Positions 2,837 to 26,351 of a stretch of 32,000 nt of DNA are shown here, one piece after another. The stretch comes from Paeniglutamicibacter terrestris. Its GTDB lineage: Bacteria > Actinomycetota > Actinomycetes > Actinomycetales > Micrococcaceae. The notes under the pieces were generated by a model, which was not told the DNA's origin, searched no databases, and saw only the letters and a list, made by a program, of their open reading frames with translations. Within the stretch, counting starts at the first letter, position 1; every line of letters starts with the position of its first letter. Location of the stretch: positions 9,843 through 41,842 of the forward strand of contig NZ_JAAWVT010000012.1 in assembly GCF_012271785.1 (NCBI RefSeq), in the 5' to 3' direction. The translations under genes were made by a program, and so were the position numbers.

Positions 2837-2849
2837 GGTGCGATGTTTC

Positions 2850-5104: not shown

Positions 5105-5114
5105 GCTGTGGCAC

Positions 5115-7371: not shown

Positions 7372-7474
7372 GCAGTGACTTCTTCCGCAATACTTCCGCA
7401 CAGCTTCTGCGATCTTGAGAAGTCACACCGCTATGGTGGAAGCTGATCCAGAGGTCGACCAAGGAGTAAAACAC

Positions 7475-9291: not shown

Positions 9292-10503
9292 ATGTCACGC
9301 ACGCTACTAGACATGGGTCCAGATCAACGCAGCTCCCCCACCGCGATAAACCCCGGCTCGCAGTCGGCGCTACGCGAATTAAATGAAGAACGAATCCTTG
9401 CCATGCTGCGCAGCCATGGGACGCTGACGCAAGCCGCATTGGCCCGCTCCACGGGCTTATCCACCGCTACGATTTCAAACATCGTCAAGTCCCTTGTGGC
9501 CACACAGCGTGTGGAGACCGCCCCCACGACCAGCTCGGGGCGTCGGGCGATGGGAGTGAGCATCATTGACGCGGCGGATGTCGCGGTAGGCATCGATTTC
9601 GGACGTAGCCACGTTCGCGTTGTCCTCGCCCGCGCCGGGTTCCATCTGCTCGGTGAGGACCATACGGCATTGCCAGTGGGCCACCGCGCGGAAGAAAGCA
9701 TTTCGATTGCCGCATCGATGCTCAAAAAGCTTTGTGCGAATCTCGGCGTCGACCACACCCAGCTCCTCGGCGCGGGCATTGGCATCCCCGGGCCCATAGA
9801 CCACCGAACCATGACCGTCATCAGGGGCGCCATCCTCCCGGAATGGGTGGGTATCAATATCGAATCCCAGCTCCAAGCTGCCCTCAGCTTGCCCGTATTC
9901 ATTGACAATGACGCCAATTTGGGAGCCCTGGCCCAGGTGACGTGGGGTGAGCATCAAGAAAGCTCAAATCTCTGTTTCCTCAAGATTGGCAGTGGCATCG
10001 GCGCCGGTTTAGTTCTCAACGGGTCGCTGTACTACGGAAGCCTAGGCATCACCGGAGAAATCGGGCATTCAACGATCTTCAATCAGGGATTGATCTGCCG
10101 CTGCGGAAATCGAGGATGCCTTGAGACCGTGGCTTCCACGGGAGTCATCATCGATCTCCTCAGCCAAAGCGAGGGCACCCCGATCGGCATCGAGGCGGTG
10201 ATTGAGCGCGCGCAATCCGGGGACTCGGCAACGCTTCGCATCCTTGGAGACGTCGGCGCGGCTGTCGGCCATGCATTGGCCAACGTTTCCAACTTACTCA
10301 GCCCCGAGGTCATTGTCATCGGAGGACCACTGGCACCGCTGGGTGAGCTACTCCTCGAGCCCATTCGTCGTGGCCTTTTCCGCCACGCCATCCCCATCAT
10401 TGGTGAGAACACGGTGGTGCGTATGGCGGCGCTGGGCGACCGCGCCGAAGCACTCGGCGCGTCAGCACTGGTGCTCCGCCAAGGCCAACCACGTCAGATT
10501 TAG
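9292..10503 (+). CDS. ROK-family transcriptional regulator (N-terminal wHTH plus ROK sugar-kinase-like domain)
   Basis: 403 aa. wHTH (LTQAALARSTGLSTATISNIVKSL), ROK glycine-rich segments (GIGIPGPID, DNDANLGALA) and the Zn motif GHSTIFNQGLICRCGNRGCLE. An alternative start at 9313 is possible. Confidence 0.85.
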   Translation: MSRTLLDMGPDQRSSPTAINPGSQSALRELNEERILAMLRSHGTLTQAALARSTGLSTATISNIVKSLVATQRVETAPTTSSGRRAMGVSIIDAADVAVGIDFGRSHVRVVLARAGFHLLGEDHTALPVGHRAEESISIAASMLKKLCANLGVDHTQLLGAGIGIPGPIDHRTMTVIRGAILPEWVGINIESQLQAALSLPVFIDNDANLGALAQVTWGEHQESSNLCFLKIGSGIGAGLVLNGSLYYGSLGITGEIGHSTIFNQGLICRCGNRGCLETVASTGVIIDLLSQSEGTPIGIEAVIERAQSGDSATLRILGDVGAAVGHALANVSNLLSPEVIVIGGPLAPLGELLLEPIRRGLFRHAIPIIGENTVVRMAALGDRAEALGASALVLRQGQPRQI

Positions 10504-10640
10504 GCCTCCATTTTGGCAACGATTCGGGAAAGTTTGCGTTAAGTAGTTGACGACAAACTGTGACGTAGGCAACCATTAGGTGATCCCTGACACATCACTC
10601 GACAAATTCTCACATTTTCAAACAACTTTTGGAGGCAAAT

Positions 10641-11933
10641 ATGCGCCGTCGTCTATCGCTCATCGCAGCGGCCGCAACATTGGGACTGACCCTAGCTGGG
10701 TGCGGCGGTGCAGCCGAGACTCCCTCGAACACCGCGGCTCCGGCCAGTGAGGCCACCGGCAAGGTCGGCGTGTTCACATGGTGGGCCGACGGTTCGGAGA
10801 AGGTCGGACTTGATGCCCTGGTGAAGGTATTCAACACCGACTACCCGGGTCTCACGTTCGACAATCTCGCCGTAGCCGGCGGTGCTGGTTCACAGGCCAA
10901 GAGCGTTTTGGCGGCCCAGCTGAAGGCGGGCAACCCGCCAGATTCCTTCCAGGCACACGCCGGTGCGGAGCTGCAGGACTACATTGATGCCGAGCAGCTT
11001 GAGGATCTCACCAGCTTCTACACCGACAACAACCTCACCGACCAGTTCCCCAAGGACCTGATCGACAGGCTCACCGTGGATGGAAAAATCTACTCGGTTC
11101 CCTCCAATATTCACCGTTCAAACGTCGTCTGGGCCAATGTTGAGGTCCTGAAGGACGCGGGCTTGGATCCGACCAAACCCGCCGAAGACCTCGATGCCTG
11201 GATCGCGGACCTGGAAAAGATCAAGGCCAGCGGGAAGACCCCGCTAGCGGTCGCCGGTTCTTGGACACAGGTTCAGCTCTTTGAAAACGTTTTGCTTTCC
11301 AGTCTTGGGGTCGACGGCTACAACGGCCTCTGGGATGGAGCAACGGATTGGAAGGGCGCCGATGTCACCAAGGCCATCGAGTCCTACAAGAAGGTCCTGA
11401 GCTACACCAATACCGACCGCGATTCACTCAGCGACTGGGCGCCAGCCACCCAGCTGGTCCAAGACGGCGCGGCAGGCTACAACCTCATGGGTGACTGGGC
11501 CGAGGCTAAGTTCGCTCAAGACGGAGACGTTGCGGGCACCGACTACACCTACTTCCCGATGCCGGGAACCAAGGGTGTCTTCAACTTCCTCGCCGATTCC
11601 TTCACTCTGCCGGTGGGCGCGCCCAACCCGGCCGGAGCCAAGGCATGGTTGACAACGATCGGTTCGGCCGAGGGCCAGGCAGCTTTCAACAAGGCCAAGG
11701 GATCAATTCCGGCCAACACCACGGCCAAGACGGATGACTTCTCCGAGTACCAGAAGAGCGCCATCAAGGACTTCTCGCAGGACAAGATCGTCTCATCCCT
11801 GGCACACGGCGCCGCGGTGCCAGTGGCCTGGCTCAACGATCTGAGCACGGCAGTCAGCAAGTTTGGTGGCGACAATGATGTGGCAGCCCTGCAGGAATCC
11901 GCTGCAACTACCGCAGAGAAGTTCGCCAAGTAA
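10641..11933 (+). CDS. Carbohydrate ABC transporter substrate-binding lipoprotein (CUT1 type)
   Basis: The ATG at 10641 follows GGAGG (10631-10635). Signal peptide with lipobox LTLAGC. The motif AVAGGAGSQAKSVLAAQLKAGNPPDSFQAHAG is typical of family-1 sugar-binding proteins. Confidence 0.88.
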   Translation: MRRRLSLIAAAATLGLTLAGCGGAAETPSNTAAPASEATGKVGVFTWWADGSEKVGLDALVKVFNTDYPGLTFDNLAVAGGAGSQAKSVLAAQLKAGNPPDSFQAHAGAELQDYIDAEQLEDLTSFYTDNNLTDQFPKDLIDRLTVDGKIYSVPSNIHRSNVVWANVEVLKDAGLDPTKPAEDLDAWIADLEKIKASGKTPLAVAGSWTQVQLFENVLLSSLGVDGYNGLWDGATDWKGADVTKAIESYKKVLSYTNTDRDSLSDWAPATQLVQDGAAGYNLMGDWAEAKFAQDGDVAGTDYTYFPMPGTKGVFNFLADSFTLPVGAPNPAGAKAWLTTIGSAEGQAAFNKAKGSIPANTTAKTDDFSEYQKSAIKDFSQDKIVSSLAHGAAVPVAWLNDLSTAVSKFGGDNDVAALQESAATTAEKFAK

Positions 11934-11950
11934 GCACTCTCCACCACGCG

Positions 11951-11995
11951 TTTGGGGGCGCTCACAACCACAACGGTTCGTGATGCGCCCCCAAA
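11951..11995 (+). other. Intercistronic hairpin after the binding-protein gene (TTTGGGGGCGC / GCGCCCCCAAA, 11-bp stem)
   Basis: The inverted repeat was read directly at 11951-11961 and 11985-11995. It lies between the SBP stop (11933) and the permease start (12030), a typical position for partial termination or mRNA stabilisation in ABC operons. Confidence 0.5.
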
Positions 11996-12029
11996 TGTTT
12001 GTGACGCGACTTTCCTCTGAAAGGAAACC

Positions 12030-12935
12030 ATGTTTGCGCGCGTAAAACACTGGGGCCCGGGGCTCTTACTCCTGGCACCCACCATCATCTTGGTTGGCGT
12101 CTTCGTCTACTGGCTCATCATTGAAAACTTCCGAGTCAGCCTCACCAACCAGCACACCGCAAAACCCAGCAACGATTACGTTGGATTCTCGAACTACAGC
12201 AATCTGCTGGCCGATTCGAACTTCCAACATTCGCTCTTGAACCTGCTCATCCTCACGGTCGTCTTCCTCGCCGGAACGTTGATTTTCGGATTCCTGTGGG
12301 CCTGGTTGCTGGATAAGCCAGCCAAGGGCGAAGGAATCTTCCGCGCCGTCTACCTGTTCCCGATGTCGATTTCCTTTATCGCCTCCGGTGTTGTCTGGCG
12401 GTGGTTGCTCTCCAGCCTGCAAACGGATCAACCCGGCGGTGAACGCACCACCGGCCTGAACCGTCTTTTGGATTCCGTTGGTCTGGGCTTTATGCAAAAC
12501 GACTGGTGGTCCAACCCCACCTGGGGCATTGCCGCCATCGCCGTACCCGCCATCTGGCAGCTCTCGGGCTACGTCATGGCCCTGTTCTTGGCCGGTTTCC
12601 GGGGCATTCCCGAGGAACTACGCGAGGCTGCCCGGATTGACGGCTGTAGCGAATGGAAGCTCTACCGCCACGTGATCTTCCCGCAGCTGAGCCCGGTGAT
12701 GCTCTCGGCCGTGATCATCATCGGACACATGTCCTTGAAGCTCTTTGACTTGATTCGTGCGATCGTCCCGGATGCCAACACCTACGACGTCCAGGTTCCG
12801 GCGACCATGATGTGGGTCAAGTACATTGGCAGCGACTACGCGGATGCCGCGGCCATCGGCATGATCCTGCTGGTGCTCGTAGCGATCGTGGTCATCCCGT
12901 ACCTCATGTACACCTCGCGAGCGGAGAAGCGCTAA
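12030..12935 (+). CDS. Carbohydrate ABC transporter permease (MalF/UgpA-like)
   Basis: 301 aa, multiple TM segments, EAA-loop region EELREAARIDGCSEWKLYRHVIFPQL. SD GAAAGGA upstream. Confidence 0.88.
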   Translation: MFARVKHWGPGLLLLAPTIILVGVFVYWLIIENFRVSLTNQHTAKPSNDYVGFSNYSNLLADSNFQHSLLNLLILTVVFLAGTLIFGFLWAWLLDKPAKGEGIFRAVYLFPMSISFIASGVVWRWLLSSLQTDQPGGERTTGLNRLLDSVGLGFMQNDWWSNPTWGIAAIAVPAIWQLSGYVMALFLAGFRGIPEELREAARIDGCSEWKLYRHVIFPQLSPVMLSAVIIIGHMSLKLFDLIRAIVPDANTYDVQVPATMMWVKYIGSDYADAAAIGMILLVLVAIVVIPYLMYTSRAEKR

Positions 12936-13822
12936 TGGCTACCTCAACATTGACCCGACCCCGCGACGCGGCCCCGCAAAGTGCAGCTTCGGCACCGAAT
13001 AAGGGACGCCGCCGCATTAACCGGACGTTGAAGTACGCGTTGCTGATCTTCTTCGTGATCATCATCCTGATCCCCGCCTACGTCCTGTTCATTACCAGCT
13101 TCAAGGGCACCTCGGATGCAGATCCATCACGCGCCTGGTTGCTGCCCCAGTCGTGGGAAACCGCCGGCTGGGACAAGGCCTGGACGACACTGGCCCCCGC
13201 CCTGGGCAGAACCTTCCTGCTGGTGATTCCTGCGGCGCTGATCTCCGCCACCCTGGGTTCCATCAACGGCTACGTGCTCTCCAAATGGCGTTTCCCCGGT
13301 GCCAATCTGGTGTTCACGCTGATCCTTTTTGGCATGTTCATCCCATACCAAGCAGTCATGATCCCGCTGACGCAGCTGATGAGCAATATTGGGATAGCCC
13401 AAGGCATTCCCTCACTGTTGTTGCTGCACATCGTTTACGGTTTGCCGATCTGTACGCTGATCTTCCGCAACTACTACGAGTCGGTACCCAACGAGCTGAT
13501 TGAGGCGGCCAGGATGGACGGCGCGGGAATCTTGCGCACCTATGCCTCGGTCATCCTTCCGATCTCGGCCCCCGGCTTTGTTGTCGTGCTGATCTGGCAA
13601 TTCACCTCGGCCTGGAACGACTACCTCTTTGCCGCGTTCTTCTCCTCGGGACGTAATGGCCCGGTCACCATCGCGCTCAGCTTCCTAGCCGGTGGTCAGC
13701 TCACCGACTACGCCGCCTCCATGGCAGGTGCGCTGATTGCCTCGGTTCCGACGCTGATCGTCTACATCCTGCTGGGCAAATACTTTGTTGGCGGCTTGAT
13801 GAGTGGTTCCGTCAAGGGCTAG
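12935..13822 (+). CDS. Carbohydrate ABC transporter permease (MalG/UgpE-like)
   Basis: The ATG at 12935 overlaps the upstream TAA (TAATG). The product begins MATSTLTRPRD... and has the EAA loop ELIEAARMDGAGILRTYASVILP. The track start at 12812 would lie inside the previous gene. Confidence 0.88.
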   Translation: MATSTLTRPRDAAPQSAASAPNKGRRRINRTLKYALLIFFVIIILIPAYVLFITSFKGTSDADPSRAWLLPQSWETAGWDKAWTTLAPALGRTFLLVIPAALISATLGSINGYVLSKWRFPGANLVFTLILFGMFIPYQAVMIPLTQLMSNIGIAQGIPSLLLLHIVYGLPICTLIFRNYYESVPNELIEAARMDGAGILRTYASVILPISAPGFVVVLIWQFTSAWNDYLFAAFFSSGRNGPVTIALSFLAGGQLTDYAASMAGALIASVPTLIVYILLGKYFVGGLMSGSVKG

Positions 13823-13846
13823 ACGACAACGGTAAACCACTCCCTG

Positions 13847-13891
13847 ACGCGGGGGCGCTTCGTCTATTCGGCGAGCGCCTCCGCGTTTTTC
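13847..13891 (+). terminator. Rho-independent terminator of the ABC operon
   Basis: ACGCGGGGGCGCT (13847-13859) pairs with AGCGCCTCCGCGT (13874-13886), with one G.U pair, and is followed by TTTTT. Confidence 0.65.
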
Positions 13892-13895
13892 CTTC

Positions 13896-14663
13896 TCATT
13901 TGGTGCTTCGCGGTGCCCAGAGCAGGGCGCCGACTAAGGTATCGGGCAAATGGCGGCCTAGAGAGTCTGGTGTGCGCGAATCCAGGGTGAGGGTCCGCGT
14001 TACGGGAGTGGACAGCAGTACGTGCTTACCGTCCCCCTCCACGATGGGGATACCGCCCTCCCCCGCAAGACCAACACCGCTGGCCTTGACCACGGCTTCC
14101 TTCAACGACCACCAGCTAGCTCGTTGGTGGATTCGTTGAGGTTGGTTCAATCTCTGCAGGTGGGAGCGTTCCTGGGGCGAAAAGGCATAGTCATCCAATA
14201 GTTCACCGGCTCCCGGCGCAAAGGCCGGATCTGCGGCATCTGCCACATCGATACCAAGCAGCTGTTCCGCACGCGATACCGCTACCACCAGCCAGCCACC
14301 GGTACGTGCATACGATAGGGCGAGGCTCCCCCCACGATCGGGAAGCCGCAGTCGCGGATTCCCGTGCAGTGTTGAGGCACATCCGGGACAGAGCTGTTCG
14401 ATGGTTAGATCGGCTGCGCTCAGTTTCGCGCTGTGTTCACGGTCGCGGTTGAGCATCTCCGCGGCAAGGACTTTAACCAAAATACGTCCGTTGCTAAAGT
14501 TCTGACGCGGTGTTCCTTCGTGGTAGCCCCGAGCGCGTTGCTGCTCGATGCTGTTCAGTAAAACCTCTGGGTACAGGGCCGCATCACTCAGCCGCCCAAC
14601 AGACCAGCAGGGTTCGGTGCCCGGGGTGATAGAACCCACTACGGAGTGCTTTTCACTGCGCAT
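13896..14663 (-). CDS. Sfp-type 4'-phosphopantetheinyl transferase
   Basis: 255 aa. PPTase motifs LLGIDVADA (GxD) and WWSLKEAVVKASG (W/FxxKEAxxK), plus the CPGCASTLHGNP segment common in actinobacterial Sfp-type enzymes. GGAGG lies 5 nt upstream of the ATG. Confidence 0.85.
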   Translation of the reverse strand: MRSEKHSVVGSITPGTEPCWSVGRLSDAALYPEVLLNSIEQQRARGYHEGTPRQNFSNGRILVKVLAAEMLNRDREHSAKLSAADLTIEQLCPGCASTLHGNPRLRLPDRGGSLALSYARTGGWLVVAVSRAEQLLGIDVADAADPAFAPGAGELLDDYAFSPQERSHLQRLNQPQRIHQRASWWSLKEAVVKASGVGLAGEGGIPIVEGDGKHVLLSTPVTRTLTLDSRTPDSLGRHLPDTLVGALLWAPRSTK

Positions 14664-14930
14664 CGGTGCCTCCGTCCGTGATGATCAGCCGCTTGGTTGG
14701 TCTCTTGGCTGCCCCTTGGGCAAATCTGCCATGGCTCTACATTACGGTGAACTTACCGTGTCTATCCGCTAGACACCTTCCGTTAACCTTTGCTGATTAG
14801 GTTTGACGCGTATGTGCCGACCGGGCGGTCGCGAACGCTTCGGCGGCGCGCTTCCGGCTCCTGGTTGGGTCCCAGCGTTTGGGTCGACCCCTACTTTGGG
14901 AAGGCCGAGCGCCACGTCAAGAAAGCCACA

Positions 14931-17900
14931 GTGGAATCGACTCGCAGCATTTCCGACCAAGTTACTCCTCCGCCAATTTATCTGCCCCAGTACCCCGGCA
15001 GTGACTTGGCCCCGGCTCCCCGCACCCTGCTGAACATCCTTGAAGCCAGTGCGGCTGCTCACCCCGACGCCTCCGCAATAGATGACGGCGAGCGCGCGCT
15101 CACGTATGCCGAACTCATGGTGAGTATCGATGAACAGGCCGAACGCATGCGAACCGCCGGCCTCGGGGCCGGCGACAGAGTCGGCATCCGTATTCCCTCT
15201 GGGACCCGCGAACTCTACATTGGCATTCTTGCCACGATGATGATTGGTGCTGCCTACGTCCCGGTGGATGCCGATGACCCGGAGGAACGAGCCCAGCTGG
15301 TCTTCTCCGAGGCCAATGTTGCTGCCGTCTTGGGCGTCAAGGGAGAAATCGCCGTACTGCGAAGCGAAGCCAATACATCACCGGCTCGGGAGGCAGAACT
15401 CGGTGACGATGCCTGGATCATCTTCACCTCCGGCTCCACCGGTACCCCCAAGGGTGTGGCCATCACCCAGCGCTCGGCCGCGGCATTTGTTGACGCCGAG
15501 GCAGCACTCTTCCTCCAGAGCGAGCCGATGGGACCCGAAGACCGCGTGCTCGCCGGCCTCTCTGTCGCCTTTGATGCGTCCTGTGAAGAAATGTGGTTGG
15601 CTTGGCGCCACGGTTCCTGCTTGGTGCCAGCTCCGCGTGCTCTGGTTCGTTCGGGCATGGATTTGGGGCCGTGGCTGGTAACTCGCGGTGTCACGGTCGT
15701 CTCCACCGTTCCCACCCTTGCGGCACTCTGGCCCGCCGAGGCCCTAGAAAATGTGCGCCTGTTAATTTTTGGTGGTGAAGCCTGCCCACCCGAGCTAGCC
15801 GCCCGTCTAGCCGTCACCGGACGCGAACTCTGGAACACCTATGGACCCACCGAGGCCACGGTGGTGGCCTGCGGTGCCCAGATGAACGGTATTGACTCGG
15901 TCCGTATTGGTCTGCCACTGACCGGTTGGGATCTCGCCGTGGTTGATACCTCGGGTATCCCGGTGGGTCCTGGTGAGAGCGGAGAACTGATCATTGGCGG
16001 AGTCGGTCTAGGGCGTTACCTTGATCCGGCAAAGGATGCGGAAAAATACGCTCCGTTCCCCACCCTCGGCTGGGACCGTGCCTACCGCTCCGGTGACTTG
16101 GTACAGGCCGACCCCGAGGGCCTAATTTTCCTGGGTCGTCTGGATGAACAGGTCAAGCTCGGTGGCCGTCGCATTGAGCTCGGCGAGGTTGATGCCGCGC
16201 TGCAATCATTGCCCGAGGTATCTGGAGCTGCAGCGGCGGTGAAGACCACCGCCGCCGGAAACCAGATCTTGGTCGGCTATCTGGCCGCCGATGCCTCCTA
16301 TGACACGATCGCTGCCCGCACCCGACTGGCCGATATGCTCCCGGCTGCGCTGATCCCCTTACTCACGGTTGTGGATACGCTACCGACAAAAACCAGTGGC
16401 AAGGTTGACCGTCACGCTCTGCCGTGGCCGTTGGCCACGGCAGCCGATACCTCCTCCTCGGTACTGCCCGAGCTGGGCGAGGACGCGAGCTGGGTCATCG
16501 AGCAATGGAGGCGGGTACTGGGTACCGAGGTCTCCTCCCTTGATGCAGACTTCTTTGCCTCAGGTGGCGGATCCCTCTCCGCCGCTCAACTGGTCTCCGC
16601 ACTACGCGTTCGCTACCGCACCATCACGGTGGGGGAAATTTACTCCCACCCACGCATCGGTTCCTTGCTTGAAGCCTTGGGCACCAGCACCGGGGTAGAA
16701 CCGGAGACTCGGATCGTGGCCCGGACCACCCGACGCGCCCAGGTCTTCCAGACGCTTATGGGCATCCCAACGTTCATTCTGGTGGGCATGCGCTGGCTGG
16801 TGTATTTGGCACTCGGCAACAACGTGCTCGACGCGCTGGGCGTCTTCACGCAGGCACCACGGCTGTCATGGTGGACGGTGCTGGTGCTCTGGTTGGTCTT
16901 TGTCTCCTCCCCGGGACGCATGGCCATCTCCGTGATCTCGGCACGCATGTTGCTGCGCGGAGTGAAGCCCGGAAATTACCCCCGTTCCGGCAAGGTGCAC
17001 CTGCGTCTCTGGCTGGCCCAACAAATTTCCGATTTGGCCGACCCCGTGTCCCTGGGCAGCGCCCACTGGATTCAGTTCTACGCCCGAGCCTTGGGCGCCA
17101 CCGTTGGCCCCGATGTGCAATTGCACTCGGTACCTCCAGTCACCGGTCTACTCACCGTTGGCAGCGGAGCGAACATCGAACCCGAAGTTGATCTGACCGG
17201 CTACTGGATCGACGGAGATCGTGTGCACGTCGGCGCCATCACCATTGGGGCAGATGCCAGCATTGGGGCCCGCAGCACGCTGATGCCCGGTGCCAGCATC
17301 GCCGAGGGTGTCACTCTGGCCGCCGGCTCTGTTGCTGCCGGTCCCACCCGGGCGTTCTCCGCCTACTCCGGTTCCCCGGCCACTCGCCTGGGAAAGGCCA
17401 AACCGGCCTGGCCCCAGACCATCACCACTGCCCGCCGCGTGGCCAGCACGTTCTTCTCTCTGGCTTCGATGGCTCTGGGCGCCCTGCCACTGGTTTCGAT
17501 CCTTGGTGCGCTGGTGATTGCCGCGTGGCTGCTGCGCGGGGGCACTTCGCTGAGCGATTCGTGGCTCACGTTGCTTTACGTGGTTCCCGTTGCCGCCGTG
17601 ACATGGTTTGTGCTGAATATGCTCCTGATTCTGGGCGCCACTCGCATCTTGGGCCTTGGCCTGCGTGAGGGATGGCATCGCGTCGATAGCCGCATCGGCT
17701 GGCAGGTCTGGGCCACCGAACGACTCCTGGACATGGCCCGGGATCTGCTCTTCCCGCTGTACGCATCGCTGTTTACTCCCGTCTGGTTGCGCCTGCTGGG
17801 CGCGAAGGTCGGACGCAACGTTGAGGCCTCCACCGTCCTGCTGATTCCCAAGATGACCACCATCGCCTCGGGTGCTTTCCTGGCCGATGACACCATGGTG

Positions 17901-18830
17901 GCCACCTACGAGCTCGGCGGCGGCTGGATGAAGGTGGGACGCGCCAAGATTGGCAAGCGCGCCTTCTTGGGTAACTCAGGTATCGCCGGTGCCGGGCGAC
18001 GGGTGCCACGTAATGGGCTCGTCGCTGTCCTCTCGGCAACACCTGCCAAGGCCAAGGCCGGGACCTCCTGGTTGGGCAGTCCTCCGGTTCGACTGCGCCG
18101 CACCACCGTTGATGCGGATTCCTCGCTGACCTATGCTCCGCCGCTACGCCTCAAGATCGCCCGCGCGCTGTGGGAATTGTGCCGTATTTTGCCGGTCATC
18201 ACCAGCGTCGCGGTAGCCACCCTGGTCCTGGTCCTGCTGGATATGCTGGCCACCCACTACGGTTACCTGGCTGCCGCCCTGCTCAGTGGCGCCGTCATGC
18301 TGCTCGCCGGCGCCGTTGCCGCCACCTCGGCGGTCCTTGCCAAATGGGTGCTGGTCGGTCCCATCCGTCCGGGTGAACATACCCTGTGGAGCTCCTTCAT
18401 CTGGCGCAATGAGGTGGTGGACACCTTCATCGAAATGGTGTGCGCTCCTTGGTTCGCCCACTCGGCGGCAGGTTCCCCTGCATTGGTCTGGTGGTTGCGC
18501 GCCCTCGGTGCCAAGATCGGCCACGGCGTCTGGTGCGAAAGCTATTGGCTTCCCGAAGCCGACCTGGTCACCCTCGGCGACTCCTCCACGGTGAATCGCG
18601 GAACGGTCATCCAGACCCACCTCTTCCACGACCGGGTCATGGCTATTGATACGGTAGAACTCTCCGCAGGATCCACGATGGGTCCCCACGGAGTCATCCT
18701 GCCGGCTGCATCGTTGTCGGAAGGCTCCACCGTGGGACCGGGTTCGCTGGTCATGCGCGGAGAAAACGTTCCCCCGTCGAGTTATTGGATGGGCAACCCC
18801 GTACAGCCTTGGAGCCAGCCGAACGCATGA
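14931..18830 (+). CDS. Pls/PosA-family single-module non-ribosomal peptide synthetase (A-T-6TM with three tandem C-terminal domains; homopoly(amino acid) synthetase-like)
   Basis: The frame is open from 14790 (TTG). I prefer the GTG at 14931, about 30 aa before the conserved APRTLLNILEASAAAHP, but the start is uncertain. A-domain motifs FTSGSTGTPKG, FDAS, NTYGPTE, YRSGD, GRLDEQVKLGGRRIELGEV, PTKTSGKVDR. PCP motif FFASGGGSLS (Ser codon 16572-16574). Three pairs of TM helices alternate with three paralogous ~160-aa soluble domains. No HHxxxDG or TE motif seen. Confidence 0.9.
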   Translation: MESTRSISDQVTPPPIYLPQYPGSDLAPAPRTLLNILEASAAAHPDASAIDDGERALTYAELMVSIDEQAERMRTAGLGAGDRVGIRIPSGTRELYIGILATMMIGAAYVPVDADDPEERAQLVFSEANVAAVLGVKGEIAVLRSEANTSPAREAELGDDAWIIFTSGSTGTPKGVAITQRSAAAFVDAEAALFLQSEPMGPEDRVLAGLSVAFDASCEEMWLAWRHGSCLVPAPRALVRSGMDLGPWLVTRGVTVVSTVPTLAALWPAEALENVRLLIFGGEACPPELAARLAVTGRELWNTYGPTEATVVACGAQMNGIDSVRIGLPLTGWDLAVVDTSGIPVGPGESGELIIGGVGLGRYLDPAKDAEKYAPFPTLGWDRAYRSGDLVQADPEGLIFLGRLDEQVKLGGRRIELGEVDAALQSLPEVSGAAAAVKTTAAGNQILVGYLAADASYDTIAARTRLADMLPAALIPLLTVVDTLPTKTSGKVDRHALPWPLATAADTSSSVLPELGEDASWVIEQWRRVLGTEVSSLDADFFASGGGSLSAAQLVSALRVRYRTITVGEIYSHPRIGSLLEALGTSTGVEPETRIVARTTRRAQVFQTLMGIPTFILVGMRWLVYLALGNNVLDALGVFTQAPRLSWWTVLVLWLVFVSSPGRMAISVISARMLLRGVKPGNYPRSGKVHLRLWLAQQISDLADPVSLGSAHWIQFYARALGATVGPDVQLHSVPPVTGLLTVGSGANIEPEVDLTGYWIDGDRVHVGAITIGADASIGARSTLMPGASIAEGVTLAAGSVAAGPTRAFSAYSGSPATRLGKAKPAWPQTITTARRVASTFFSLASMALGALPLVSILGALVIAAWLLRGGTSLSDSWLTLLYVVPVAAVTWFVLNMLLILGATRILGLGLREGWHRVDSRIGWQVWATERLLDMARDLLFPLYASLFTPVWLRLLGAKVGRNVEASTVLLIPKMTTIASGAFLADDTMVATYELGGGWMKVGRAKIGKRAFLGNSGIAGAGRRVPRNGLVAVLSATPAKAKAGTSWLGSPPVRLRRTTVDADSSLTYAPPLRLKIARALWELCRILPVITSVAVATLVLVLLDMLATHYGYLAAALLSGAVMLLAGAVAATSAVLAKWVLVGPIRPGEHTLWSSFIWRNEVVDTFIEMVCAPWFAHSAAGSPALVWWLRALGAKIGHGVWCESYWLPEADLVTLGDSSTVNRGTVIQTHLFHDRVMAIDTVELSAGSTMGPHGVILPAASLSEGSTVGPGSLVMRGENVPPSSYWMGNPVQPWSQPNA

Positions 18831-20230
18831 GCAAGACCACGCCAGTTGATACGACCACCGTCCCCAGCTTCATCCCGGATCCCTATGTGCCACGCTCCGG
18901 AAGCGCACACTACCTGGTGATGCACTACGACCTGGATCTGGATTGCAAACTCGGCGGTAATCGCTTGGACGGCAAGGCGACGATCACAGCGGTGGCCACC
19001 ACCAGACTCGATCGTATTAGCCTGGACTTTTCCGGCTTGCGTGCCTCACGCTGCCAGGTCAATGGCACCAAGATCGCCAAGTACACCCAGAAATCGGGAA
19101 AGCTGGTGCTCCACCTGCCCTCGGACGTGGCCAAGGGCGAGGAATTTAGTGTGGAGATCCGCTACGGGGGCGTGCCGAATGTTCGTCAAGGCATCTGGGG
19201 CGAGGTCGGCTGGGAAGAACTCACCGATGGGGTGCTGGTGGCGGGCCAACCAAATGGGGCTGCCACCTGGTTCCCCTGTAATGATCACCCCAGCCAAAAG
19301 GCCACCTACCGCATCACCGTAAACACCGATGCCGGATACCGCCCGGTCTCCAACGGCCAGTTGATAAACCGCCAACGTCGCTCACGTGGTGAGGCCTGGA
19401 CCTATGAGGTCCTTGAGCCGATGGCCACCTATCTGGCGACGCTGCAGATCGGCCGCTATGAGTTGCGTGCGTTAGCAGGCTCCGCCACGGCGGCCAGTGG
19501 CACCGGCGGTGCGCATGCAGATGCCCCAACCCCCGTCATCCAACGCGTGGCGGCAAATGGCTCGCAGCTGCGGCGGGCAGGTTCTGCCCTGTCCGACCAG
19601 CCACGAATGATGGAAACCTTTATCGAGGCTTTTGGCCCCTATCCCTTCGCCGACTACACCGTTGTTGTCACCCAGGACGATCTCGAGATCCCGCTGGAGG
19701 CCCACGGCCTCTCCATTCTGGGCAATAACCACCTAGCGCCGGGCTGGGAGCAACAGCGACTCATCGCCCACGAGCTCTCGCATCAATGGTTTGGCAACTC
19801 CCTGACCGCTGGAACCTGGCGGGATATCTGGTTGCACGAGGGCTTTGCCTGCTACGCCGAGTGGATCTGGTCCGAAGCCGCCGGCAACCTCAGTGCCGAT
19901 GAGCGTGCGCGAGATGCGTGGAGCCGCCTGGCTACCCTGGACTGGGACATCACCATCGGGGATCCCGGTGCAGCCGACATGTTTGATGACCGGGTGTACA
20001 AGCGTGGCGCACTAGCACTTCATGCGCTGCGATTGGCCGCCGGGGACCGCGCGTTCTTTGCGATGCTCCGGTCTTGGGTCGGTGCGCGGCGCCATTCGAC
20101 CGTCACCTGTGAGCAGTTCCTGGAGCACGTGGATGCTCATTTGCCGCTTTCCGTGTCGGCCGCCGATTTCCTGCGGCCATGGCTCTTTGAAACTGCCTTG
20201 CCGCAGCTTGCCGCGGAGAAAAACGCCTAG
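18827..20230 (+). CDS. M1-family zinc metallopeptidase (short, cytoplasmic type), translationally coupled to the synthetase
   Basis: The ATG at 18827 overlaps the synthetase TGA (ATGA). HELSH at 19769-19783, with Glu 19 residues after the second His (WLHEGFACYAEW), gives HExxH-X18-E. The GxMEN position reads IPLEAHGL (19688-19711). No signal peptide seen. Confidence 0.88.
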   Translation: MSKTTPVDTTTVPSFIPDPYVPRSGSAHYLVMHYDLDLDCKLGGNRLDGKATITAVATTRLDRISLDFSGLRASRCQVNGTKIAKYTQKSGKLVLHLPSDVAKGEEFSVEIRYGGVPNVRQGIWGEVGWEELTDGVLVAGQPNGAATWFPCNDHPSQKATYRITVNTDAGYRPVSNGQLINRQRRSRGEAWTYEVLEPMATYLATLQIGRYELRALAGSATAASGTGGAHADAPTPVIQRVAANGSQLRRAGSALSDQPRMMETFIEAFGPYPFADYTVVVTQDDLEIPLEAHGLSILGNNHLAPGWEQQRLIAHELSHQWFGNSLTAGTWRDIWLHEGFACYAEWIWSEAAGNLSADERARDAWSRLATLDWDITIGDPGAADMFDDRVYKRGALALHALRLAAGDRAFFAMLRSWVGARRHSTVTCEQFLEHVDAHLPLSVSAADFLRPWLFETALPQLAAEKNA

Positions 20231-20307
20231 CCAGAGACGGGTAGACCGATCCCACTAGGCCTCCAAATGTTCACCTTCCGTTCATGGCGTTCCGATAGCC
20301 TCACCCT

Positions 20308-21192
20308 ATGCAAATGCTTGATTTGGCCGCACATGGCTACTCCGTCCGCGACAATGACGACGACGACCCGGTGTTGTTAACGTCAGCCGGCGATGTAGTG
20401 GACACCTGGCGCGAAGACTATCCATATTCCTCACGGATGGACCGCACCCAGTACGAGATGGACAAGCGGCTGCTCCAGATCGAGCTGCTGAAATTACAGG
20501 TCTGGATCAAGGCCACCGGACACCGTTTGGTCGTGCTCTTTGAGGGCCGCGACGCCGCGGGCAAGGGCGGAACGATCAAACGTTTCACCGAGCACCTCAA
20601 TCCCCGTGGCGCCCGGGTAGTTGCCCTCGAAAAGCCCAGCGAACGCGAATCCACACAGTGGTTCTTCCAGCGCTATATTGCGCACCTTCCAGCGGCCGGC
20701 GAAATGGTCCTCTTTGACCGTTCTTGGTACAACCGCTCAGGTGTTGAACGCGTCATGCGCTTTTGCACCAAGGAGCAATTCGATAGGTTCATGAACCAGG
20801 CTCCGACCTTCGAGCAGCAATTGGTTGATGAGGGCATCACCCTGGTGAAGTTCTGGTTCTCGGTCTCGCGCCAAGAGCAGCTGACGCGCTTTACCATCCG
20901 TCAGATCGATCCGGTACGGCAGTGGAAGCTCTCCCCCACGGACCTTGCGTCGCTGGATAAATGGGAAGCCTACACCGAAGCCAAGGAAGAAACCTTCCGG
21001 AGCACCGACACCGAATGGGCACCCTGGACAGTTGTGAAATCCAACGATAAGAAGCGCGCTCGGATTGAGGCCATGCGCCATGTGTTGAGCCTCTTCGACT
21101 ATGAGGGCAAGGACCACGAACTGGTCGGCACCCCGGACCCGCACATTGTCGGACCTGCTTCGGCAGTTGTGGCGGCCGGCGAAGAGTTCTAG
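20308..21192 (+). CDS. ppk2: Polyphosphate kinase 2 (PPK2, class I-like)
   Basis: 294 aa. Walker A FEGRDAAGKGGTIKR, YFQRY-like FFQRYIAHLP, DRSWYNR, and lid region QWKLSPTDLASLDKW. Collinear with mycobacterial PPK2 from memory. Confidence 0.9.
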   Translation: MQMLDLAAHGYSVRDNDDDDPVLLTSAGDVVDTWREDYPYSSRMDRTQYEMDKRLLQIELLKLQVWIKATGHRLVVLFEGRDAAGKGGTIKRFTEHLNPRGARVVALEKPSERESTQWFFQRYIAHLPAAGEMVLFDRSWYNRSGVERVMRFCTKEQFDRFMNQAPTFEQQLVDEGITLVKFWFSVSRQEQLTRFTIRQIDPVRQWKLSPTDLASLDKWEAYTEAKEETFRSTDTEWAPWTVVKSNDKKRARIEAMRHVLSLFDYEGKDHELVGTPDPHIVGPASAVVAAGEEF

Positions 21193-21210
21193 TCACGACC
21201 CAGTAAAAGT

Positions 21211-21255
21211 GAAGGCCGGTAGTTTCCCTCGATCAGAGAGAAGCTACCGGTCTTC
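21211..21255 (+). terminator. Terminator hairpin after ppk2
   Basis: GAAGGCCGGTAG (21211-21222) pairs with CTACCGGTCTTC (21244-21255), with one mismatch. It starts 19 nt after the ppk2 stop. Confidence 0.5.
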
Positions 21256-21339
21256 CGGGTCTAAGGATCATCACCGATGAAGGGGTGGACATTCAGTCGC
21301 CGTCGTGCAGTTCACGTGTGGATGGCGAAACCGCCCGAA

Positions 21340-21381
21340 TGTGATGCCACCGTCCTCCTCGAGGCAGATAACGGCATCACA
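21340..21381 (-). terminator. Candidate terminator hairpin after the Ltp-repeat gene
   Basis: TGTGATGCC (21340-21348) / GGCATCACA (21373-21381), a 9-bp perfect stem with a large loop. It lies 12 nt downstream of the minus-strand stop at 21393. Confidence 0.35.
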
Positions 21382-21392
21382 TCCAAGAGCGA

Positions 21393-22382
21393 TTAGAGGC
21401 CCGTCTTACTCACTCCATATTCTGCCTGCTTCGCCGTGTAGCCCTCGAAAACAAGCTGATCTACGAGCCCGGATCGCGAGAATGCCGTGTACTCGAGATA
21501 GCTTTTGGCTGATTTGGCCGCTTGCTCGTTCCAGTCGACCGTCACTCGTTCCACCGCCCAAGTGGCATCCTTCGTTGAGTAGTCCTCGAACTCGAGTTGC
21601 GAGATAAGGCCCTTGCGAGAGAATGCAGTGTATTCGAGATAGCTTTCCGCGGCACGCAAGGCATTCTGCTGGCTCAAGGTCCCTGCCTCCGCTTTCGCCT
21701 TGGCACTGGCCTCTGCGGCAACCTTGGCTTGGGCTTCTGCTTCCGCCTTCTCGCTTGCCTCGGCCTTTTTGCTGGCTTCGACTTCGGCCTTAGCGCTCGC
21801 CTCAGCCTCCGCTTCCTCAATGGCGTTTGCACTGGCCACCGCTTCATCGCTCGCCTTGGCCTCCGCGGAGGTGAGAGCGGTAGAAGATGCTACGGCCGCG
21901 GCTGCCGGTGATTCGCTAGGTGTCGCAGTTGCTGACGCTGTTGGCGACGCGGTGCCAGCCGGTGCCGTCGACGGCTCTTCGCCAGATCCACCACAAGAAG
22001 CAATGAGGATGGCAAAAACAACAACGACTCCAGCGCCGATGCCGATTTTTTTACCCTTGCTCAGCGGTTTTTTCGATTCCAAAGTTCCCGGAGTTGAGAA
22101 CCCTGCGGCGGATGAATTTCCCACCGCGGCACTGGCAGCTATGGGTGATCCAGTTGCAGCCGCGGCTGCACCAAAATCGGGCATCACCGACATGTACAAA
22201 TATGGATTGGCAGAAAATTCTTCCGGCGGCATGGCCGGGGCGCCAGTCTCATTGTCGATCCACATGGGCCAACCGATGGGCGGTGCACCCCACGCCTTTT
22301 CCGGAACCCACGTCGGTGTGGGCCGGAACTCGGTAGGAAGATGTTGAAGCCAAAGCGGTGGAGGATTAAAACGAATAGACAT
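21393..22382 (-). CDS. Membrane-anchored protein with two C-terminal Ltp (phage lipoprotein Ltp-like, PF07553-type) repeats
   Basis: The ATG at 22382 (MSIRFNPPPLW...) is preceded by AGGGGAA; the track start at 22493 is rejected. There is one TM segment, KKIGIGAGVVVVFAILIASCGG, then an Ala/Glu/Lys-rich linker. Two repeats follow: NALRAAESYLEYTAFSRKGLISQLEFEDYSTKDATWAVERV and AAKSAKSYLEYTAFSRSGLVDQLVFEGYTAKQAEYGVSK. Confidence 0.8.
   Translation of the reverse strand: MSIRFNPPPLWLQHLPTEFRPTPTWVPEKAWGAPPIGWPMWIDNETGAPAMPPEEFSANPYLYMSVMPDFGAAAAATGSPIAASAAVGNSSAAGFSTPGTLESKKPLSKGKKIGIGAGVVVVFAILIASCGGSGEEPSTAPAGTASPTASATATPSESPAAAAVASSTALTSAEAKASDEAVASANAIEEAEAEASAKAEVEASKKAEASEKAEAEAQAKVAAEASAKAKAEAGTLSQQNALRAAESYLEYTAFSRKGLISQLEFEDYSTKDATWAVERVTVDWNEQAAKSAKSYLEYTAFSRSGLVDQLVFEGYTAKQAEYGVSKTGL
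21681..21869 (-). repeat. Low-complexity coding repeat (Ala/Glu/Lys-rich, AEAxAKAEA-like) inside the Ltp-repeat gene
   Basis: Encodes SAEAKASDEAVASANAIEEAEAEASAKAEVEASKKAEASEKAEAEAQAKVAAEASAKAKAEAG. The degenerate GCC/GCT/GAG/AAG-rich periodic DNA also generates long shadow ORFs on the plus strand. Confidence 0.6.
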
Positions 22383-22649
22383 GATTCCCCTAATGACGAT
22401 CGCGAATGTGCGGAGTTCCCGATCCCCCGGGTACCTCCTGATCCAGAGCGTAGGCGGGGCCACAGACATTTCGTCGTTTATCTCAATCCGCATTCACCAT
22501 AGTGCGGTTTATGGTTCCGCTAGGATCGTTCATGACTCAAATCCCGTCTCGAAACTTTCCCTAATTCAAACGGTGATTCTTACTACGCAGTATGCCAAAC
22601 CCGTTCAAAAGATCGGCGCTACTCAGTGCCCGAGCCGGGTGACCATGGC

Positions 22650-25259: not shown

Positions 25260-25262
25260 GTC

Positions 25263-26351
<1,089 letters not shown>

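What the first reader, a model, noticed from the sequence alone, without database searches (positions are those of the whole stretch)
14790..18830. Single-module Pls/PosA-type NRPS: candidate synthetase for a cationic homopoly(amino acid)
Seen: one ORF of about 1300 aa carries adenylation core motifs, numbered from the 14790 frame: FTSGSTGTPKG 212-222, FDAS 261-264, NTYGPTE 349-355, YRSGD 432-436, GRLDEQVKLGGRRIELGEV 449-467, PTKTSGKVDR 532-541. A carrier motif FFASGGGSLSAAQL follows (Ser595, nt 16572-16574). After that I saw no HHxxxDG condensation motif and no GxSxG thioesterase motif. Instead there are six hydrophobic helices in three pairs (about aa 651-678/693-719, 884-915/924-956, 1123-1152/1158-1190). 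Each pair is followed by a soluble module of about 160 aa. The three modules are visibly paralogous (W-LRxLGAxVGxxV, hexapeptide/beta-helix-like turns, GSP/GNP near the end). Established: this A-T-(2TM-C1)-(2TM-C2)-(2TM-C3) layout is the hallmark of epsilon-poly-L-lysine synthetase Pls of Streptomyces albulus. Its relatives include delta-poly-L-ornithine PosA and the poly-Dap/poly-Dab/poly-beta-Lys synthetases. These enzymes iteratively polymerise one basic amino acid and extrude the polymer. Hand alignment to GrsA positions 235/236/239/278/299/301/322/330/331/517 gives D262 A263 E266 S305 I326 G328 T350 V358 V359 K538, that is DAESIGTVVK. From memory this is one residue away from the Lys code DAESIGSV. 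Inference: the locus makes a lysine-type polycationic antimicrobial polymer. Its product, linkage and chain length are unknown for this host lineage, and the block it sits in looks accessory.
Basis: partly seen in the sequence, partly recalled or inferred. Interest (0 to 1): 0.85.

Follow-up and report, generated by a model that had tools for sequence, protein, structure and literature searches.

The report
Ordinary epsilon-poly-L-lysine synthetase operon
This is an intact membrane-bound enzyme of the well-known Pls family, predicted to string lysine into the antimicrobial polymer epsilon-poly-L-lysine. It sits with its usual partner peptidase in a Paeniglutamicibacter (Arthrobacter-like) chromosome, so it is a routine member of a known, widely annotated family rather than a discovery.

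Summary
The ORF has one A domain, one T domain (Ser595), no condensation or thioesterase domain, six hydrophobic helices in three pairs, and three paralogous beta-helix modules.

NCBIfam TIGR02353 (Pls/PosA family) matches end to end at 669 bits, against a cutoff of 423. The A domain is 66% identical to the crystallised S. albulus Pls A domain. Its 10-residue code, DAESIGTVVK, is identical to that of experimentally confirmed epsilon-poly-L-lysine synthetases. A zinc M1 peptidase (pldII-like) overlaps the stop codon (ATGA), as in S. albulus, and follows pls in 76 of 80 related genomes.

The host is Paeniglutamicibacter. A 99% identical protein is already in NCBI, and orthologues are named "Pls/PosA family NRPS". 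Pls homologues in Arthrobacter and Glutamicibacter were published in 2021.

Corrections:
- The true start is probably GTG 14928 (1300 aa).
- The locus is syntenic across Micrococcaceae, between argC-ADH and pheST, so it is not obviously accessory.

Side lead: a PHO-box-like repeat lies upstream of both pls and the adjacent PPK2 gene. The exact PPK2 16-mer lies mostly upstream of pstS, pit, phoU and ppk in metagenomes, which suggests phosphate control.

Verdict: interpretation supported, novelty low.

The parts
14928..18830 (+). pls: probable CDS of the Pls-family synthetase (1300 aa). The maximal ORF starts at TTG 14790 (1346 aa). Residue numbers in this report use the 14790 frame.
   Evidence: ORF. 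Start: protein conservation with L005/L006 begins at KKATVE. NCBI orthologues P0017, P0019 and P0020 start at the V47 equivalent, and the 99%-identical P0016 reads 14812-14900 in another frame. With this start the offset to S. albulus Pls numbering is zero.
15012..16442 (+). Adenylation domain (aa 75-551). Specificity code D262 A263 E266 S305 I326 G328 T350 V358 V359 K538 = DAESIGTVVK.
   Evidence: Pfam AMP-binding at E 1.3e-57. 7wew (S. albulus Pls A domain) at E 2.6e-195, 66.1% identity, all 10 code positions identical. Published Pls code.
16491..16679 (+). Thiolation (carrier) domain, aa 568-630. The phosphopantetheine-attachment Ser595 is at nt 16572-16574.
   Evidence: Pfam PP-binding at E 4.3e-10. 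GGGS motif at 592-595.
16743..18803 (+). Pls/PosA-type C-terminal polymerisation domain (aa 652-1338).
   Evidence: TIGR02353 NRPS_term_dom at 669.5 bits against a cutoff of 423.1, covering profile positions 1-695 of 695.
16731..16952 (+). TM helix pair 1 (TM1 aa 648-682, TM2 aa 694-721).
   Evidence: Hydropathy. AF2 helices H12-46 and H58-85 of the model, block pLDDT 77-94.
16953..17435 (+). C1 soluble module (left-handed beta-helix type).
   Evidence: BLASTP to C2 at E 5e-11 and to C3 at E 8e-8. Pfam Hexapep at 817-848, E 3.3e-5, below cutoff. The C1 profile hits QdtC, GlmU, SAT and LpxA in the PDB at E down to 3e-8.
17436..17651 (+). TM helix pair 2 (TM3 aa 883-915, TM4 aa 925-954).
   Evidence: Hydropathy maxima 2.32 and 2.21. 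AF2 helices.
17652..18143 (+). C2 soluble module.
   Evidence: Paralogy. Most conserved part of the family alignment.
18144..18356 (+). TM helix pair 3 (TM5 aa 1119-1157, TM6 aa 1159-1189).
   Evidence: Hydropathy maxima 2.43 and 2.22. AF2 helices.
18357..18827 (+). C3 soluble module.
   Evidence: Paralogy to C1 (E 8e-8) and C2 (E 3e-5).
18827..20230 (+). pldII-like M1 zinc metallopeptidase (467 aa). Its ATG overlaps the pls stop (ATGA), which implies translational coupling.
   Evidence: Pfam Peptidase_M1 and Peptidase_M1_N. HEXXH-X18-E at 315-338, no GXMEN, ATGA overlap. A homologue starts within 300 nt downstream of pls on the same strand in 76 of 80 genome loci. pldII is translationally coupled to pls in S. 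albulus (PMC9223678).
13896..14663 (-). Putative Sfp-type 4'-phosphopantetheinyl transferase, divergently transcribed. Likely primes the T domain.
   Evidence: Pfam ACPS at E 1.3e-9. A homologue sits at the same place in L005 and L006, and downstream of the peptidase in L009, L011, L012, L015, L017 and L019.
20308..21192 (+). Polyphosphate kinase 2, a possible polyP-driven nucleotide regeneration partner. Association is inferred only.
   Evidence: Pfam PPK2 at E 3.4e-99. Identical to WP_210149937.1 of Paeniglutamicibacter terrestris. Next to pls-pldII in L005, L006, L009 and L016 only.
14771..14788 (+). Degenerate PHO-box-like direct repeat, AGACACCTTCCGTTAACC, upstream of pls.
   Evidence: The core CACCTTCCGTTMA occurs only twice in the window, and 0 of 100 shuffles gave 2 or more. 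Orthologous sites lie upstream of pls in 13 other loci. 23 of 79 pls upstream regions score 11/14 or better against GTTCACC-N4-GTTCACC, versus 25 of 1533 control windows. This particular site scores only 10/14.
20269..20286 (+). PHO box GTTCACCTTCCGTTCATG. The shared 13-nt core ends 23 nt upstream of the PPK2 ATG.
   Evidence: In metagenome contigs the exact 16-mer lies mostly upstream of PstS-type binding proteins (35 loci), a BPD_transp_1 ABC-transporter permease (10), PHO4 transporters (3), PhoU (2) and PPK1 (1). The S. coelicolor PHO-box core is GTTCACC (PMC4415409).

Best explanation
The ORF encodes an epsilon-poly-L-lysine synthetase (Pls orthologue) of a Paeniglutamicibacter chromosome. 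It is expressed as a translationally coupled pls-pldII operon.

Proposed mechanism, by homology to S. albulus Pls:
1. The neighbouring Sfp-type PPTase converts Ser595 of the T domain to the holo form.
2. The A domain adenylates L-lysine and loads it as a thioester.
3. The membrane-embedded C-terminal domain has six TM helices and three beta-helix modules packed as a pseudo-trimer. It catalyses attack of the epsilon-amino group of free lysine, or of the untethered growing chain, on the Lys-S-T thioester.
4. Repetition yields an isopeptide polymer that is released outside the cell.
5. The M1 zinc peptidase trims or degrades the polymer, giving self-protection and an influence on chain length.

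Shown here: domain architecture, family membership, substrate code, operon structure and synteny.
Inferred: lysine activation, epsilon linkage, chain length, export and actual expression.
For: - TIGR02353 matches end to end at 669.5 bits against a cutoff of 423.1.
- AMP-binding and PP-binding domains are present, with no C or TE domain.
- The best PDB match is the S. albulus Pls A domain 7wew (E 2.6e-195, 66.1% identity). PosA 8G95 scores only 170.6 bits.
- The code DAESIGTVVK equals the code of S. albulus, S. celluloflavus, Epichloe and Claviceps Pls. It differs from the Orn (DMEHNGTVSK), DAP (DFEYVGTVTK), DAB (DFECLSAVTK) and beta-Lys (DGESVSVVNK) enzymes.
- The code is shared by 119 of 121 sequences (the 120 closest homologues plus the query) and by all 80 genome loci.
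- Six hydrophobic helices and three paralogous modules are present.
- The C1 profile hits LbH acyltransferases.
- The M1 peptidase has an intact HEXXH-X18-E motif, overlaps the pls stop, and follows pls in 76 of 80 loci.
- The same operon in C. variabile gave 26-35-mer epsilon-PL on heterologous expression (PMC8117764).
Against: - No biochemical data exist for any Micrococcaceae enzyme.
- Linkage and chain length cannot be read from sequence.
- The C. variabile orthologue was silent in its native host, so production by this organism is not assured.
- The AF2 model is only moderately confident (mean pLDDT 69.5), and Foldseek against the PDB gave no significant hit.
- TM helices were assessed by hydropathy and AF2 only, not by a dedicated topology predictor.
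- No full-length tree with the DAP, DAB and beta-Lys synthetases was built here.
Confidence: 0.85

Rival explanations
1. It is a Pls-family synthetase that makes a different cationic homopolymer: another monomer (Orn, Dab, Dap, beta-Lys, D-Lys), or a different linkage or length class than classical 25-35-mer epsilon-PL.
For: The family contains enzymes for at least five other polymers with the same architecture. Linkage and length are set by the C-terminal domain and its linkers, which cannot be decoded from sequence. The C-terminal domain was not compared directly with a characterised Pls here.
Against: The 10-residue code is identical to confirmed Lys enzymes and differs at 4-6 positions from every other characterised code. 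The A domain scores 655 bits against Pls and 171 bits against PosA. The pldII-type peptidase context is specific to Pls and absent from the DAP/DAB synthetase loci.
Confidence: 0.08
2. The enzyme does not release a free polymer. It uses the same chemistry to attach lysine or short oligolysine to a cell-envelope acceptor, with the peptidase as an editing partner.
For: The locus is vertically conserved at a core chromosomal position in Micrococcaceae, which is atypical for a dispensable antibiotic. The native C. variabile enzyme gave no detectable free epsilon-PL.
Against: No acceptor-specific gene is conserved in the locus. Every characterised family member releases free polymer. The C. variabile orthologue made free 26-35-mers in S. 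coelicolor.
Confidence: 0.04
3. It is a conventional NRPS fragment or pseudogene: an A-T didomain fused by chance to unrelated membrane sequence.
For: NCBI names the 99%-identical protein only "AMP-binding protein".
Against: It is a single uninterrupted ORF with an end-to-end match to the curated terminal-domain model. It shows 65-85% identity over the full length to hundreds of orthologues with the same layout. Internal three-fold paralogy is significant.
Confidence: 0.01

Closest known systems
Epsilon-poly-L-lysine synthetase Pls of Streptomyces albulus NBRC 14147 (BAG68864.1; A-domain structure PDB 7WEW)
   Same: A-T-(2TM-C1)-(2TM-C2)-(2TM-C3) layout. A domain 66.1% identical. Identical DAESIGTVVK code. 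Downstream translationally coupled pldII-type peptidase. With the GTG 14928 start, the N-terminal numbering coincides.
   Different: The host is a non-filamentous Micrococcaceae bacterium. An adjacent divergent PPTase and a PPK2 gene are part of this neighbourhood. A PHO-box-like element lies upstream. The product has not been verified.
Corynebacterium variabile DSM 44702 Pls and the coryneform Pls homologues of Jiang et al. 2021 (PMC8117764), including Arthrobacter sp. BW77/BW80 and Glutamicibacter arilaitensis JB182
   Same: Coryneform Actinomycetota. Same architecture, same code, same pls-peptidase operon. Predicted (and for C. variabile demonstrated heterologously) to make epsilon-PL of 26-35 residues.
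   Different: Genus Paeniglutamicibacter was not in that survey. Direct sequence identity to those proteins was not computed here.
Delta-poly-L-ornithine synthetase PosA of Acinetobacter baumannii (ATY43264.1; PDB 8G95-8G98)
   Same: Same family model (TIGR02353) and overall architecture. PosA's modelled C-terminal domain also has six bent TM helices and three left-handed beta-helices.
   Different: The PosA code is DMEHNGTVSK, with Met rather than Ala at position 2. The A-domain match is only 170.6 bits, against 655 for Pls. PosA has no cotranscribed peptidase.
Left-handed beta-helix (hexapeptide-repeat) acyltransferases such as QdtC, GlmU, serine acetyltransferase and LpxA
   Same: The C1 profile matches them at E 3e-8 to 1e-4. 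These enzymes are trimeric, which mirrors the three tandem modules.
   Different: Here the three beta-helix units are fused in one chain, interleaved with TM hairpins. They use an aminoacyl-S-carrier donor rather than acyl-CoA.

Membership tests
Pls/PosA family (cationic homopoly(amino acid) synthetases; NCBIfam TIGR02353) | Curated terminal-domain HMM above its trusted cutoff, matched over full length | tested here: met
   669.5 bits against a cutoff of 423.1; aa 652-1338 cover profile positions 1-695 of 695.
Pls/PosA family (cationic homopoly(amino acid) synthetases; NCBIfam TIGR02353) | Single N-terminal A domain plus one T domain with a phosphopantetheinylation serine | tested here: met
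   Pfam AMP-binding and PP-binding. All core motifs and GGGS Ser595 are present.
Pls/PosA family (cationic homopoly(amino acid) synthetases; NCBIfam TIGR02353) | No canonical condensation or thioesterase domain | tested here: met
   No Pfam Condensation or Thioesterase hit. No HHxxxDG. The lone GTSTG lies in the linker.
Pls/PosA family (cationic homopoly(amino acid) synthetases; NCBIfam TIGR02353) | Six transmembrane helices arranged as three pairs | tested here: met
   Six Kyte-Doolittle peaks of 1.64-2.43 coincide with six long AF2 helices. No dedicated TM-topology program was available.
Pls/PosA family (cationic homopoly(amino acid) synthetases; NCBIfam TIGR02353) | Three tandem paralogous soluble modules of acetyltransferase (beta-helix) type | tested here: met
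   Pairwise BLASTP E 5e-11, 8e-8 and 3e-5. The C1 profile hits LbH acyltransferases at E 3e-8. Foldseek on the AF2 model was not significant; its top five hits were serine acetyltransferases at E 0.14-1.
Epsilon-poly-L-lysine synthetase (Pls sensu stricto) | A-domain specificity code of confirmed Pls enzymes (DAESIGTVVK) | tested here: met
   10 of 10 identical to S. albulus Pls by alignment. The published code is in PMC10522769 Supplementary Table 2 and PMC8117764 Data Set S3.
Epsilon-poly-L-lysine synthetase (Pls sensu stricto) | Closer to confirmed Pls than to Orn, DAP, DAB or beta-Lys synthetases | tested here: inconclusive
   For the A domain the test is met: 655 bits and 66% identity to Pls, against 171 bits to PosA. 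No full-length tree with the DAP, DAB and beta-Lys enzymes was built, because their sequences were not retrievable here.
Epsilon-poly-L-lysine synthetase (Pls sensu stricto) | pls followed by a translationally coupled pldII-type metallopeptidase | tested here: met
   ATGA overlap at 18827-18830 and an intact M1 zinc motif. The arrangement is conserved in 76 of 80 loci. S. albulus precedent and C. variabile precedent.
Epsilon-poly-L-lysine synthetase (Pls sensu stricto) | Adenylates L-lysine and produces epsilon-linked poly-L-lysine | not testable with these tools
   Requires enzyme assay and product analysis.
Canonical modular NRPS | Condensation domain and a terminal release (TE or R) domain | tested here: not met
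Actinobacterial Pho regulon (PhoP/RegX3-type control) | PHO box (11-nt phased GTTCACC direct repeats) in the promoter region | tested here: inconclusive
   The PPK2 upstream site is a 12/14 match. Its exact 16-mer lies mostly upstream of pstS, pit, phoU and ppk genes in metagenomes. The pls upstream site scores only 10/14 in this window. However, it is orthologous to better sites in relatives, and such sites are enriched upstream of pls (23 of 79 regions versus 25 of 1533 controls). Regulator binding was not tested.

The most novel reading that the evidence does not exclude
In Micrococcaceae and several other non-Streptomyces Actinomycetota, the pls-pldII operon may belong to the phosphate-starvation (Pho) regulon, together with the adjacent PPK2 gene in this genome. 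A PhoP/RegX3-type regulator would bind an 11-nt-phased GTTCACC repeat placed at the -35 position of a promoter that looks leaderless in most relatives. Phosphate limitation would then be the missing trigger for the silent coryneform pls genes. In that case the natural pls-PPK2 pairing would link polycation synthesis to polyphosphate and ATP economy.
Probability: 0.35. Interest if true: 0.45.

Novelty: new member of a known kind. Interest (0 to 1): 0.18.

Why it matters
As a gene identification it matters little. The family, its architecture, its lysine code, its peptidase partner and its presence in Arthrobacter-like bacteria are all published, and both NCBI PGAP and antiSMASH (NAPAA) detect it automatically.

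Its practical value is as one more candidate non-Streptomyces epsilon-PL producer, from a cold-adapted genus, for a compound used as a food preservative.

The more useful outcome is the regulatory lead. Pls genes of coryneforms are silent in the laboratory. A conserved PHO-box-like operator upstream of pls, with a canonical PHO box on the neighbouring PPK2 gene, gives a cheap and direct experiment: grow the cells under phosphate limitation. It also connects to engineering work showing that PPK2-based ATP regeneration raises epsilon-PL titres.

Tried and rejected
- Rfam scan of the whole window at gathering thresholds: no family, so no lysine riboswitch or other known RNA upstream of pls.
- Folding the putative 5' leader 14808-14935: z-score +0.82, no unusual structure.
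- Sigma-70 and terminator consensus scan of 13800-21500: nothing beyond chance, and nothing near the pls start.
- Exact look-up of the 1346-aa translation: not in the collection, because public gene calls use other starts.
- TTG 14790 and GTG 14814 as starts: rejected in favour of GTG 14928. The 99%-identical strain reads 14812-14900 in a different frame, and conservation begins only at KKATVE.
- "Accessory island" reading: rejected on synteny and GC.
- Literature search for PhoP control of pls, or for epsilon-PL production by Micrococcaceae: nothing found in the held library.
- A full-length comparison with S. albulus Pls and the DAP/DAB synthetases was not possible, because their sequences were not among the returned hits. 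I judged a second 13-CPU-hour search unnecessary given the code, the A-domain identity and the operon evidence.

Full report
**Observation.** The window carries a 1346-codon ORF at 14790..18830 on the + strand.

It also confirmed that HHxxxDG is absent and that the only G.S.G string is GTSTG at 631-635, in the linker after the carrier domain.
- Pfam finds AMP-binding (aa 84-407, E 1.3e-57) and PP-binding (568-630, E 4.3e-10). A sub-threshold Hexapep hit lies at 817-848. There is no condensation or thioesterase domain.
- An AlphaFold2 model of aa 637-1346 was built on 47 homologues (mean pLDDT 69.5, pTM 0.78). It places six long helices at aa 648-682, 694-721, 883-915, 925-954, 1119-1157 and 1159-1189.
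- The three soluble modules between and after the helix pairs are related well beyond chance: BLASTP C1-C2 5e-11, C1-C3 8e-8, C2-C3 3e-5.
- A profile of C1 from 28 genomes hits solved left-handed beta-helix acyltransferases (QdtC 3e-8, then WxcM, gamma-carbonic anhydrases, maltose and galactoside acetyltransferases, DapH, GlmU, SAT, LpxA).
- Foldseek of the model against the PDB was not significant, although its top five hits were serine acetyltransferases.

**What it is.** NCBIfam TIGR02353, the "Pls/PosA family non-ribosomal peptide synthetase" terminal-domain model, matches aa 652-1338 over its whole length. The score is 669.5 bits against a trusted cutoff of 423.1.

The best solved-structure match is the adenylation domain of S. 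albulus epsilon-poly-L-lysine synthetase (7wew, E 2.6e-195, 66.1% identity over 475 aligned residues). The PosA adenylation domain (8G95, identified) scores only 170.6 bits.

At the ten Stachelhaus positions the query and Pls are identical: D262/A263/E266/S305/I326/G328/T350/V358/V359/K538, giving DAESIGTVVK. This is the published code of S. albulus Pls (PMC10522769 Supplementary Table 2). It is also the code of the Epichloe, Claviceps and S. celluloflavus epsilon-PL synthetases (PMC8117764 Data Set S3).

The characterised enzymes for other monomers carry clearly different codes:

| Monomer | Code |
|---|---|
| Orn | DMEHNGTVSK |
| DAP | DFEYVGTVTK |
| L-DAB | DFECLSAVTK |
| D-DAB | DFECLSCVSK |
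| beta-Lys | DGESVSVVNK |

Position 2 is Ala here. It has been shown experimentally to track substrate side-chain length.

**Context.** The next gene starts at ATG 18827, overlapping the pls stop codon (ATGA). It encodes a 467-aa M1 metallopeptidase with an intact HEXXH-X18-E zinc site.

In S. albulus the epsilon-PL-degrading enzyme PldII is encoded next to pls and translationally coupled to it. It serves self-protection (PMC9223678). The same pls-peptidase operon distinguishes Pls from the DAP and DAB synthetase loci (PMC8117764).

Across 80 genomes holding relatives of this protein, a homologue of the peptidase starts on the same strand within 300 nt of the pls stop in 76. All 80 share the DAESIGTVVK code.

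Upstream and divergent lies a 255-aa ACPS-superfamily phosphopantetheinyl transferase. Homologues accompany pls in eight Micrococcaceae loci, although at different positions. Downstream lies a PPK2 polyphosphate kinase.

**Host and distribution.**
- The PPK2 protein is identical to WP_210149937.1 of Paeniglutamicibacter terrestris.
- The synthetase is 99% identical to a protein of Paeniglutamicibacter sp. Y32M11 that NCBI names "AMP-binding protein".
- It is 82-85% identical to proteins of other Paeniglutamicibacter strains and of Arthrobacter sp. C2.
- It is 65-74% identical to scores of Arthrobacter, Pseudarthrobacter, Paenarthrobacter, Sinomonas and Kocuria proteins, most of them named "Pls/PosA family non-ribosomal peptide synthetase".
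- At least 597 species representatives carry a relative.
- Jiang et al. 2021 reported Pls homologues with this code in Corynebacterium, Brevibacterium, Arthrobacter, Glutamicibacter and others. They showed that the C. variabile gene makes 26-35-mer epsilon-PL in S. coelicolor while being silent in its own host.
- antiSMASH "NAPAA" clusters are reported in every Micrococcaceae isolate of PMC11078813.

This is thus an uncharacterised orthologue in a genus not individually described. It is not a new kind of system.

(a) Start codon.
- Protein conservation with the closest relatives begins at KKATVE.
- NCBI orthologues of 1298-1300 aa start at the equivalent of V47.
- The 99%-identical Y32M11 protein reads nt 14812-14900 in a different frame. 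That stretch is therefore not under coding constraint.
- GTG 14928, preceded by AAGAAAG, is the probable start (1300 aa). With it the numbering coincides with S. albulus Pls.

(b) "Accessory block".
- The window reads argF-argD-argB-argJ-argC (1868-7321, minus strand), ADH (7415-8443), ROK regulator, ABC sugar transporter, PPTase, pls, peptidase, PPK2, Ltp lipoprotein, then pheT-pheS.
- In 10 or more other Micrococcaceae genomes, pls-peptidase occupies the same slot between argC-ADH and pheT-pheS.
- The GC of pls (0.63-0.65) equals that of the arg genes.
- Only the ROK/ABC segment (shared with L005 and L006 alone) and the Ltp gene are variable. In 96-98%-identical metagenome strains, nt 21321-22605 is replaced by about 910 bp of other sequence.

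**Mechanism (by homology, not shown here).** The PPTase primes Ser595. The A domain forms Lys-AMP and then Lys-S-T. The C-terminal domain is modelled for PosA as six bent TM helices carrying three packed left-handed beta-helices. It joins the epsilon-amino group of a free lysine or of the free growing chain to the thioester carbonyl, iteratively. The polymer leaves the cell, and the M1 peptidase limits self-toxicity and influences length. I put 0.85 on this reading. The main residual uncertainties are product length, and whether the organism expresses the operon under ordinary conditions.

**Side finding: a PHO-box-like element.**
- The 13-mer CACCTTCCGTTMA occurs exactly twice in the 32-kb window. 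One copy is at 14774, upstream of pls. The other is at 20272 and ends 23 nt before the PPK2 ATG. None of 100 shuffles gave two matches.
- The PPK2 copy is GTTCACCTTCCGTTCA: two 11-nt-phased units with the GTTCACC core of the Streptomyces PHO box (PMC4415409).
- A metagenome scan for this exact 16-mer returned mostly high-GC contigs. The downstream gene is a PstS-type binding protein in 35 loci, a BPD_transp_1 ABC-transporter permease in 10, a PHO4 phosphate transporter in 3, PhoU in 2 and PPK1 in 1. The element therefore behaves as an actinobacterial PHO box.
- Related sites (GGACACCTTCCGTTCACC and variants) lie upstream of pls in 13 other loci. They usually sit 20-35 nt before the GTG start, after which a -10-like hexamer suggests a leaderless mRNA.
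- Against GTTCACC-N4-GTTCACC, 23 of 79 pls upstream regions score 11/14 or better, versus 25 of 1533 control windows.
- The site in this window is degenerate (10/14) and lies about 140 nt before GTG 14928. Control of this particular pls is therefore only a hypothesis.
- I found no paper linking PhoP to pls.
- The lead is of interest because coryneform pls is silent in culture, and because engineered PPK2-based ATP regeneration raises epsilon-PL titres in S. albulus (PMC10012588).

**Verdict.** Novelty is low: a new member of a known kind. Interest is 0.18, carried mainly by the phosphate-regulation lead.

Noticed in passing
window 14771-14788 and 20269-20286: A shared PHO-box-like direct repeat (core CACCTTCCGTTMA) lies upstream of both pls and PPK2 and occurs nowhere else in the window. 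In metagenome contigs the exact PPK2 16-mer lies mostly upstream of pstS, pit, phoU and ppk genes. Similar sites are enriched upstream of pls in 23 of 79 related genomes.
   Followed up: yes
window 14790-14927: The first 46 codons of the ORF are probably a 5' leader, not coding. A 99%-identical strain reads this stretch in another frame, and NCBI orthologues start at the GTG 14928 equivalent. The leader has no Rfam match and no unusual fold (z = +0.82).
   Followed up: yes
window 21321-22605 (Ltp lipoprotein gene 21393-22493, minus strand): In 96-98%-identical metagenome strains (L001, L002) this 1.3-kb segment is replaced by about 910 bp encoding three small unannotated ORFs. The flanks stay collinear, so this is a strain-variable cassette between PPK2 and pheT.
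   Followed up: partly
window 9292-13822: A ROK-family regulator and an ABC sugar-uptake system (binding protein plus two permeases) lie between the ADH gene and the PPTase/pls genes. This occurs only in this window and the two closest genomes (L005, L006). In other Micrococcaceae the ADH gene directly precedes pls.
   Followed up: partly
window 1868-7321 and 22719-26351: The pls block lies between argFDBJC and pheST. From memory, these two operons are adjacent in many actinobacteria, so pls-pldII looks like an old insertion shared by several Micrococcaceae genera.
   Followed up: partly
window 18827-20230: The pldII-like M1 peptidase has the HEXXH-X18-E zinc site but no GXMEN exopeptidase motif. 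It has no hydrophobic segment (maximum 19-residue hydropathy 1.12), whereas S. albulus PldII is described as acting outside the membrane. Its localisation here is unclear.
   Followed up: no
window 13896-14663 (minus strand); L009, L011, L012, L015, L017, L019 at about 13.4-16 kb: The Sfp-type PPTase travels with pls in Micrococcaceae but changes position. It is divergent and upstream here and in L005/L006, and downstream of the peptidase elsewhere. It evolves faster (45-55% identity) than pls (81-84%).
   Followed up: partly
L017 7880-7934: Pseudarthrobacter polychromogenes carries four GTTCACC/GTTCACT units upstream of pls, as two pairs at 11-nt spacing. This is the clearest multi-unit PHO-box arrangement seen in the set.
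   Followed up: no
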